In this document: one piece after another, positions 1 to 676 of the stretch
Layout of the letters: each line of letters begins with the position of its first letter
Position numbering within the stretch: position 1 is the stretch's first letter
Assembly (NCBI RefSeq): GCF_003334405.1
Contig: NZ_QOWM01000058.1
Direction: 5' to 3' (one strand)
Length of the DNA stretch: 676 bases
From: Escherichia coli
GTDB taxonomy: Bacteria; Pseudomonadota; Gammaproteobacteria; Enterobacterales; Enterobacteriaceae
The notes under the pieces: generated by a model
Told to the model about the DNA's origin: nothing
The model's input: only the letters and a program-made list of their open reading frames with translations
Databases searched by the model: none
Translations under genes and position numbers: made by a program

Positions 1-676
1 GTAAGTCACTGTGTGGATTATCATAACGGTAGCGGGTGATATCGCCGTCAGGGGCAGTTTCCTGAATCAGACGGCCCAATTCATCATATTCCCGGCGCAA
101 TTCCAGCCCGTCAGGCCCGGTGGCTGACGTTAACTGGTTGTGGTGGTTATAGTAAAACGCCGATGCCCTGCCATCCGGCGTGGTTATGCGCGTGATGAGG
201 CCCGTCACCACATCCGGGCTGTACTCTGTTGTCCTGCCTGCGGCATCCGTCTGTGCCCTGAGCCTGCCCACGGCGTCAAACTGACTCTGCGTGACGCTGC
301 CGTCCGCGTGTTCCTTTTTCACCACCCGCTTCAGCCCGGCTTCGCCCTGCGTGTGCAGCACTTCACGGCGGTCCAGGCTGTCGGTGATGGTGATGCGGTC
401 TTTCTCATACTGATACGTGTAGCTTAAGCCTGCCGGGTTTAGCTGTTCTGTCACCCGCCCGTCGCTGTCGTAACGGTAACGGATTTCCGGCCGGCCCGTG
501 TGACGGTGCGCCACCATCCGGCCCCGGTATTTATCATCGTAAGTAAAGCTGCGCACCTGTTTGCCACTACGGTCATACACCACCGCCAGTTCGCCGCGTG
601 GCGTCCAGCCATAGCGCACCAGCGGCGCGGCAGGTAAATTCTCCGGGTATTCCGGGTCGTGCGTCAGCCACACGGC
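1..676 (-). CDS. Rhs-family YD-repeat core protein (polymorphic toxin scaffold), internal fragment, partial at both ends
   Basis: Hand translation of the reverse complement, with codons ending at plus position 676 (base 1 is a partial codon), gives 225 residues and no stop: AVWLTHDPEYPENLPAAPLVRYGWTPRGELAVVYDRSGKQVRSFTYDDKYRGRMVAHRHTGRPEIRYRYDSDGRVTEQLNPAGLSYTYQYEKDRITITDSLDRREVLHTQGEAGLKRVVKKEHADGSVTQSQFDAVGRLRAQTDAAGRTTEYSPDVVTGLITRITTPDGRASAFYYNHHNQLTSATGPDGLELRREYDELGRLIQETAPDGDITRYRYDNPHSDL. It contains repeated YD-repeat signatures (YxYD followed by G/R-rich turns), which I recognise from memory as E. coli-type Rhs core (rhsA/B/C/D-like); I cannot tell which paralog from this fragment, so no symbol is given. 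Third-codon positions are strongly G/C-biased in this frame (about 20 of the first 25 codons), supporting the frame. Window GC is about 60% by hand count. No start or stop codon lies in the window. Confidence 0.93.

What the first reader, a model, noticed from the sequence alone, without database searches (positions are those of the whole stretch)
1..676. Probably a multi-copy genomic repeat (recombination and assembly hazard)
Rhs cores were named rearrangement hot spots because several near-identical multi-kb copies per genome act as substrates for homologous recombination, causing duplications and inversions. A conserved-core window like this may be present in several copies, so read mapping, assembly and paralog assignment are ambiguous from this fragment.
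Basis: established knowledge. Interest (0 to 1): 0.3.

Follow-up and report, generated by a model that had tools for sequence, protein, structure and literature searches.

The report
Multi-copy E. coli Rhs core fragment

Summary
The window is one uninterrupted reading frame on the minus strand. It encodes 225 residues of YD repeats, equal to codons 293-517 of the E. coli clade-I Rhs core (NCBIfam RHS_core, E=2e-128).

The multi-copy prediction holds. The window matches 3,885 of 5,426 complete E. coli genomes at 12,129 places, with a median of 3 and a maximum of 7 places per genome. All but 2 places are chromosomal.

In K-12 MG1655 the window is 100% identical to both rhsA and rhsB. It lies inside a 1,811-bp block of perfect identity, within a 3,713-bp core that is 99.2% identical. 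It is 96.4% identical to rhsC and 74% to rhsD.

In strain M217 the exact window sits at the rhsC site instead, and the rhsA- and rhsB-site copies differ from it by 2 bases. M217's rhsC-site gene is a mosaic, with an rhsA/B-type tract of at least 1.4 kb that contains 599 of the window's 676 bases. Paralog assignment from this fragment is therefore strain-dependent, and impossible between rhsA and rhsB in K-12.

Published work documents recA-dependent rhsA x rhsB duplications and rhs-caused contig breaks.

Two caveats. All K-12 copies are direct repeats, which favours duplication or deletion rather than inversion. About 28% of E. coli genomes lack the sequence.

Verdict: observation confirmed, interpretation supported, already known, low interest.

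The parts
2..676 (-). Internal fragment of an Rhs core ORF. It holds 225 complete codons, equal to codons 293-517 of K-12 RhsA/RhsB (CDS nt 877-1551). Window base 1 is the first base of codon 518. There is no start or stop codon in the window.
   Evidence: This is the only frame without stops. NF041261 RHS_core positions 301-525/1261, E=2.2e-128. The reverse complement matches exactly at CDS nt 877 of K-12 rhsA and rhsB.
20..472 (-). Stretch encoding five significant YD (RHS) repeat matches (protein residues 69-219). These are beta-hairpin units of the Rhs shell.
   Evidence: Pfam PF05593 at residues 69-100, 117-149, 133-171, 158-190 and 197-219, i-E 8e-8 to 9e-4. TIGR01643 has 3 stretches. 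Sequence match to solved Rhs shells, best Tse5 8cp6_B, E=2.6e-38.
1..676 (.). Dispersed-repeat segment. It is identical in K-12 rhsA (NC_000913.3 3763059-3763734) and rhsB (3620068-3620743), and lies inside an 1,811-bp block of perfect rhsA=rhsB identity (CDS nt 82-1892).
78..599 (.). Span holding the 24 positions that separate this allele from K-12 rhsC. Of these, 12 are nucleotide differences in unchanged codons and 12 lie in 9 changed codons. The longest exact run shared with rhsC inside the window is 77 nt.
   Evidence: In strain M217 these same 24 positions carry the window's allele at the rhsC site.
396..440 (.). The two positions (window 396 and 440, equal to CDS nt 1157 and 1113) that are the only differences between the window and the rhsA-site and rhsB-site copies of strain M217.

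Best explanation
The window is an internal segment of a clade-I (RhsA/B/C-type) Rhs core gene of E. coli or Shigella.

At the protein level it encodes part of the YD-repeat beta-shell. That shell encloses the variable C-terminal toxin of an Rhs polymorphic toxin until delivery.

At the DNA level the roughly 3.7-kb GC-rich core is present in about three dispersed, near-identical chromosomal copies in most E. coli.

- Short reads and short contigs from the window cannot be placed uniquely.
- Assemblers break or mis-join there.
- RecA-dependent homologous recombination between copies produces duplications or deletions (direct repeats) and gene conversion that homogenises the cores.

Shown here: the identity of the fragment, the copy numbers, the within-genome identity, the direct orientation in K-12, and a mosaic tract over most of the window in one strain. 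Taken from the literature: that crossovers between rhsA and rhsB occur and are recA-dependent, that rhs breaks assemblies, and that the shell encapsulates the toxin. Inferred: that the unknown source genome also holds two or more copies.
For: - Single open frame on the minus strand.
- RHS_core, E=2e-128, and YD repeats. Solved Rhs shells match, with Tse5 at E=2.6e-38.
- 3,885 of 5,426 genomes carry it at 12,129 places, median 3 per genome. In the spread sample, 58 of 60 carriers have at least 2 places.
- K-12: exact in rhsA and rhsB, 96.45% in rhsC, 74% in rhsD. The rhsA/rhsB cores are 3,713 bp at 99.19% with no gaps, and only 1 mismatch between nt 82 and 3107.
- The full K-12 genes that contain the window pass the curated RHS_core cut-off (2,644-2,647 bits against 2,000). 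They end the core at PxxxxDPxGL (residues 1238-1247), followed by a tip of 37-40% GC against a core of 62% GC.
- M217: three copies that differ at only 2 sites between nt 725 and 2703. Its rhsC-site gene is rhsC-like at nt 1-724 and 2400-3713 and rhsA/B-like at nt 954-2337.
- Literature: PMC2935791, PMC3045373, PMC5289635, PMC3967940, PMC10684867.
Against: - The source genome is unknown and the window has no flanks, so its own copy number was not measured.
- 28% of complete E. coli genomes have no match, and 2 of 60 sampled carriers have a single place.
- Recombination at rhs is rare in practice. In one mutation-accumulation study, IS elements mediated 96% of structural variants, and repeats such as rhs mediated about 2%.
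Confidence: 0.95

Rival explanations
1. The window is Rhs core DNA but is single-copy in its source genome, for example a strain that retains only one clade-I rhs. In that case there is no mapping or recombination hazard in that genome.
For: Places per carrying genome go down to 1. Two of 60 evenly sampled carriers (H81, H83) have one place.
Against: Both single-place genomes match the window at only 97.0-97.2%. All 40 best records, each with a 100% match, have 2-3 places. The two exact-match genomes examined in detail have 3 copies each at 96% identity or more.
Confidence: 0.04
2. The repetition comes from a mobile element (IS, transposon or prophage) that copies itself, not from a repeated cellular gene.
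For: ISAs1-family (H-repeat) transposase genes lie a few kb downstream of several rhs loci.
Against: The window has no transposase signal and matches only RHS_core and YD repeats. No meaningful terminal inverted repeats are present. 12,127 of 12,129 places are chromosomal. The copies sit at the same conserved sites (yibF, nikR, ybfA/kdp) in K-12, M217, 51008369SK1 and FORC 064. Homology between K-12 rhsA and rhsB begins at the ATG and ends at the core-tip boundary (nt 3713).
Confidence: 0.01
3. The 676-base window is itself a collapsed or chimeric consensus of several paralogs produced by an assembler, not the sequence of any one real copy.
For: The source is only 676 bases long with no flanks, a size typical of repeat-derived short contigs. 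Rhs elements are documented causes of contig breaks.
Against: The window is 100% identical over its full length to real copies in many finished genomes, including K-12 MG1655 rhsA and rhsB. The sequence is therefore a genuine allele, whatever the origin of the fragment.
Confidence: 0.03

Closest known systems
E. coli K-12 rhsA and rhsB (Rhs clade I; RhsA-B-C-F subfamily)
   Same: 100% nucleotide identity over all 676 bases (CDS nt 877-1552 of both genes), with the same frame and the same YD repeats. The core is GC-rich (window 60.2%, core 61.7%).
   Different: Nothing within the window. The window alone cannot say which of the two it is, or whether it comes from another strain's rhsC-site copy (M217, 51008369SK1) or yibF-site copy (FORC 064).
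E. coli K-12 rhsC
   Same: Same subfamily and collinear, 96.45% identical with no gaps.
   Different: 24 substitutions in the window, changing 9 codons. In M217 the rhsC-site gene carries the window's allele instead.
E. coli K-12 rhsD / rhsE (RhsD-E subfamily)
   Same: Same protein family, and rhsD passes the same RHS_core model. rhsD aligns across the window.
   Different: Only 74% nucleotide identity with 4 gaps, too diverged for efficient homologous recombination with this allele. The rhsE pseudogene lacks this part of the core.
Structurally solved Rhs / YD-repeat shells (P. aeruginosa Tse5 8cp6; P. protegens RhsA 7q97; Photorhabdus Rhs1/Tre23 7pq5; Salmonella bongori Rhs 8qjb-d; teneurins)
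   Same: YD-repeat shell segment. Sequence match at E=2.6e-38 (Tse5) down to about 1e-10 (teneurin-like proteins). The shell encapsulates an autoproteolysed C-terminal toxin (PMC10684867).
   Different: These are distant homologues from other genera. They are not part of the near-identical DNA repeat family that creates the mapping and recombination hazard. No structure was predicted or compared here.
Other dispersed repeats of E. coli that break assemblies (rrn operons, IS elements, tufA/tufB, gadA/gadB)
   Same: Multi-kb or near-identical repeats that cause contig breaks and RecA-mediated rearrangements. They are listed alongside rhs in PMC3045373.
   Different: Rhs cores are protein-coding and not mobile. 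Copy number varies from 0 to 7 between strains. Each copy carries a different C-terminal toxin tip.

Membership tests
Rhs / YD-repeat polymorphic toxin core (NCBIfam NF041261 RHS_core) | Tandem YD (RHS) repeats | tested here: met
   Five Pfam PF05593 matches with i-E of 9e-4 or lower. TIGR01643 at 73.8 bits against a cut-off of 15.8.
Rhs / YD-repeat polymorphic toxin core (NCBIfam NF041261 RHS_core) | Collinear match to the curated core model above its whole-protein cut-off (2,000 bits) | tested here: met
   The window fragment scores 429.9 bits over model positions 301-525. A 225-aa fragment cannot reach 2,000 bits. The K-12 RhsA and RhsB proteins that contain the exact window score 2,647 and 2,644 bits over 1-1261. 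For the window's own, unseen parent gene this is an inference.
Rhs / YD-repeat polymorphic toxin core (NCBIfam NF041261 RHS_core) | Core ends in the PxxxxDPxGL motif / Rhs-associated core domain, followed by a variable AT-rich toxin tip and a small downstream (immunity-type) ORF | tested here: met
   This lies outside the window and was tested on the K-12 genes that contain it. The motif is at residues 1238-1247. TIGR03696 matches residues 1170-1247. The tip is 37-40% GC against 62% for the core. Downstream ORFs are yibA, yhhH and ybfB. Immunity function was not tested.
Rhs / YD-repeat polymorphic toxin core (NCBIfam NF041261 RHS_core) | Forms a closed beta-shell that encapsulates the toxin; delivery through T6SS (PAAR/VgrG) | not tested
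   Only sequence homology to solved shells is available, plus the literature. No structure prediction was run and no T6SS context was examined.
E. coli Rhs clade I (RhsA-B-C-F subfamily) | Near-identity to the rhsA/B/C cores and roughly 22-26% divergence from rhsD/E | tested here: met
   100%, 100% and 96.45% against 74%. Whole cores are 99.2% and 96.8% against 77%.
Dispersed genomic repeat serving as a substrate for homologous recombination | Two or more copies per genome | tested here: met
   Median 3, up to 7 places per carrying genome. 58 of 60 sampled carriers have at least 2. The source genome itself is not available.
Dispersed genomic repeat serving as a substrate for homologous recombination | Long tracts of uninterrupted identity between copies in one genome | tested here: met
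   K-12 rhsA/rhsB share 1,811 bp of perfect identity around the window, and have 1 mismatch in 3,026 bp. The three M217 copies differ at 2 sites in 1,979 bp.
Dispersed genomic repeat serving as a substrate for homologous recombination | Evidence that exchange between copies has happened | tested here: met
   The M217 rhsC-site gene is a mosaic. At the informative sites it follows K-12 rhsC for nt 18-724 and 2400-3678, and K-12 rhsA for nt 954-2337, with 4 exceptions among 103 sites. The direction and timing of the exchange are not resolved. Experimental crossovers are known from the literature.
Insertion sequence / transposon | Transposase coding sequence and terminal inverted repeats | tested here: not met
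   There is no transposase family hit. The only inverted repeat is one 15-nt, 87% pair. The copies sit at fixed chromosomal sites.

The most novel reading that the evidence does not exclude
In some lineages (M217-type) the central 2 kb or so of the clade-I Rhs core, including this window, is actively homogenised among the three loci by gene conversion. In others (K-12 rhsC) it is not. The tract ends (between nt 725-953 and nt 2338-2399) lie near the two co-oriented Chi sites at CDS nt 633 and 2433, which rhsA/B/C share and rhsD lacks. This would suggest RecBCD/Chi-guided conversion that shapes which part of the toxin shell evolves in concert.
Probability: 0.1. Interest if true: 0.25.

Novelty: already known. 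Interest (0 to 1): 0.08.

Why it matters
The value is practical, not conceptual. Reads or contigs from this window cannot be placed uniquely in most E. coli genomes. Variant calls there are unreliable, and short-read assemblies break there. Naming the paralog (rhsA, rhsB or rhsC) from core sequence alone is unsafe, because the same 676-nt allele occupies different chromosomal sites in different strains. None of this is new: the rhs family was discovered through exactly this behaviour in 1984, and it is routinely listed among E. coli repeat classes.

Tried and rejected
- **Rfam scan**, both strands, at E<=1: no match. No RNA element is hidden in the window.
- **Internal DNA repeats:** only three short two-copy direct families (15-19 nt, 76-87%) and one 15-nt inverted pair. 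At DNA level the YD repeats are too diverged to count as repeats, and these matches look like chance.
- **Promoter and terminator scan:** one weak promoter-like site on the antisense (+) strand at 124-153 (9 of 12 matches) and no terminators. This was treated as chance. The + strand ORF at 140-427 (95 aa) starts upstream of where such a promoter would fire, and is the kind of antisense ORF expected in a 60% GC gene.
- **Chi sites:** none in the window. Two flank it in the gene.
- **Mobile-element explanation:** rejected (see rivals).
- **FORC 064 comparison:** the position-by-position comparison of the FORC 064 yibF-site gene with K-12 (last line) is invalid, because that gene is annotated as frameshifted and the ungapped comparison does not follow either parent. 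It was not used.

Full report
**What is in the window.**
- The 676 bases (60.2% GC) have stops in five of six frames. Only the minus strand, frame 0 (window 676 down to 2), is open throughout. The mechanical ORF list shows only short internal ORFs, because the real frame runs off both ends.
- The 225-aa translation aligns from its first to its last residue with positions 301-525 of the 1,261-position NCBIfam equivalog NF041261 'RHS element core protein' (E=2.2e-128). It also matches the YD-repeat model TIGR01643. Pfam gives five significant RHS_repeat matches between residues 69 and 219.
- Against solved structures, every hit is an Rhs or teneurin-type YD shell. The best is P. aeruginosa Tse5 (8cp6_B, E=2.6e-38).
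- Nothing else was found. There is no Rfam family at E<=1, no meaningful internal DNA repeat, no terminator, and only one weak antisense promoter-like match.

**Is it multi-copy?**
- Megablast of the window against all 5,426 complete E. coli genomes in RefSeq finds 12,129 places in 3,885 genomes. Carrying genomes have between 1 and 7 places, with a median of 3. All but 2 places are chromosomal.
- In 60 records taken at even steps down the ranking, 2 have one place, 7 have two, 42 have three, 5 have four and 4 have five.
- All 40 best records, each with a 100% full-length match, have two or three places.
- 1,541 genomes (28%) have no match at megablast sensitivity, so the repeat is common but not universal.

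**How alike are the copies within one genome?**
- In K-12 MG1655 (NC_000913.3) the window is 100% identical to rhsA (3763059-3763734) and to rhsB (3620068-3620743). It is 96.45% identical to rhsC (24 mismatches, no gaps) and 74% to rhsD. The rhsE pseudogene lacks this part.
- The window is CDS nt 877-1552 of both rhsA and rhsB.
- The rhsA and rhsB cores align for 3,713 bp at 99.19% without gaps, from the ATG to the core-tip boundary. The 30 mismatches cluster at the ends, leaving a perfect 1,811-bp block (nt 82-1892) around the window and only one mismatch between nt 82 and 3107.
- No base in the window can therefore distinguish rhsA from rhsB in K-12.
- The 24 differences from rhsC comprise 12 in unchanged codons and 12 in nine changed codons.

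**Is paralog assignment portable between strains? No.**
- In strains M217 and 51008369SK1 the exact window lies at the kdp-ybfA site, which is the rhsC site. In FORC 064 it lies at the yibF site, which is the rhsA site.
- I located the other two copies in M217 by synteny. The rhsA-site and rhsB-site copies each differ from the window at two positions (CDS nt 1113 and 1157, window 440 and 396). All three M217 copies differ at only those two sites between nt 725 and 2703.
- At the 103 sites that separate K-12 rhsA from K-12 rhsC, the M217 rhsC-site gene follows rhsC for nt 18-724, rhsA for nt 954-2337 and rhsC again for nt 2400-3678, with 4 exceptions.
- That is a clean mosaic with a tract of at least 1.4 kb that contains 599 of the window's 676 bases (CDS nt 954-1552); the left breakpoint, between nt 725 and 953, may fall inside the window. 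Either the M217 lineage's rhsC was converted by an rhsA/B-type copy, or the K-12 lineage's rhsC acquired a divergent patch. The data do not say which.
- Either way, exchange has occurred across most of this window. The same 676-nt allele is 'rhsA/rhsB' in one strain and 'rhsC' in another.

**Mechanism.**
- *DNA level.* The copies are long, near-identical and dispersed, so they are substrates for RecA-dependent homologous recombination. In K-12, rhsA and rhsB both lie on the + strand, 142,991 bp apart. This is the geometry that yields a tandem duplication of the interval by unequal crossover.
- Jackson et al. 2009 (PMC2935791) recount that rhs was discovered and named in 1984 through exactly this recA-dependent rhsA x rhsB event, which duplicates glyS. 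They also report that clade I has expanded by duplication in E. coli and that several cores are 'almost identical'.
- All five K-12 rhs loci are on the + strand. Crossovers among them should therefore give duplications or deletions, not inversions.
- In a mutation-accumulation study, IS elements mediated 96% of structural variants, and other repeats such as rhs mediated about 2% (PMC5289635). The name 'hot spot' therefore overstates the frequency.
- In Salmonella, recombination between a main rhs gene and a downstream orphan fragment is selected, and it switches the deployed toxin (PMC3967940).
- *Protein level* (literature plus homology, not tested here). YD repeats build a hollow beta-shell that encloses the autoproteolysed C-terminal toxin until delivery (PMC10684867). 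The K-12 genes holding the window have the full architecture. They score 2,644-2,647 bits on RHS_core against a cut-off of 2,000, and have an Rhs-associated core domain. The core ends in PxxxxDPxGL at residues 1238-1247. After it comes a tip of 37-40% GC, against 62% for the core.

**Comparison with what is known, and verdict.**
- The window is an exact member of the E. coli clade-I Rhs core family. All testable defining features are met, and no feature contradicts membership.
- The mobile-element alternative fails. There is no transposase, the chromosomal sites are fixed, and in K-12 rhsA/rhsB the homology starts at the ATG.
- This is established knowledge of four decades' standing, so interest is low.

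**Limits.**
- The source genome is unknown and the window has no flanks, so its own copy number is inferred (about 95% likely to be 2 or more), not measured.
- Within-genome identity was examined in detail in only two genomes, K-12 and M217.

Noticed in passing
L006 3563-7651 (NZ_CP130447.1 about 3,032,784-3,036,872, strain 11899A_LBHALD); the junction falls in window 266-395: A scrambled rhs gene sits at the kdp-ybfA site. Read in gene sense, CDS nt 1-1287 is followed by nt 1158-2703 (a 130-nt overlap is duplicated), then by nt 1-1287 again. After that comes non-rhs DNA next to pdeA, two tRNA-Ala genes and yfeC/yfeD, genes that to my knowledge lie about 1.8 Mb from kdp in K-12 (their K-12 positions were not looked up here). 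PGAP calls both pieces pseudogenes. One junction (nt 2703 joined to nt 1) lies at the ATG, where rhs homology starts. That looks more like an assembler join than biology, but a real rearrangement is not excluded.
   Followed up: partly
L007 3359-7552 (M217 rhsC-site gene) against L003 2584-6777 (K-12 rhsC): Mosaic structure. The two genes have no differences over nt 1-953 and one (nt 3246) over nt 2338-3713, and 65 differences in nt 954-2337, where M217 follows the rhsA/B allele. This is a gene-conversion-type tract that contains CDS nt 954-1552 of the window.
   Followed up: yes
K-12 rhsA/rhsB/rhsC CDS nt 633 and 2433 (outside the window, which is nt 877-1552): Two co-oriented Chi sites (GCTGGTGG) flank the window in all three clade-I genes. 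There are none in rhsD and none in the window. They lie 92-320 nt and 34-95 nt outside the intervals that hold the two ends of the M217 mosaic tract. The proximity may be chance, since two Chi sites in 4 kb is not unusual for E. coli.
   Followed up: partly
K-12 rhsA against rhsB, CDS nt 1-3713 (L002 2184-5896, L001 2193-5905): The 30 mismatches are strongly clustered: 4 in nt 18-81, 1 at nt 1893 and 25 in nt 3108-3705. About 3 kb of near-perfect identity remains. This is consistent with recent duplication or homogenisation of the core interior.
   Followed up: partly
Whole collection: 1,541 of 5,426 complete E. coli genomes have no megablast match to the window, and 2 of the 12,129 places are on plasmids. 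I did not examine which lineages lack the sequence or what the plasmid copies are.
   Followed up: no
window 124-153 (+) and 140-427 (+): There is a sigma-70-like match (CTGACG, 18-nt spacer, TATAGT; 1 found against 0.1 expected in shuffles) on the strand antisense to rhs. It overlaps the start of a 95-aa GTG ORF. This is probably chance in a GC-rich gene, and the ORF starts upstream of any transcript the site would make.
   Followed up: no
L001 7379-8515, L005 6817-7953, L007 1-690, L010 9359-10495: ISAs1-family ('H-repeat') transposase genes and truncated rhs core and tip fragments lie downstream of several rhs loci. The rhsB and rhsE downstream regions share 1,291 bp at 97.9%. This is a second repeat family, adjacent to but outside the window.
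   Followed up: no
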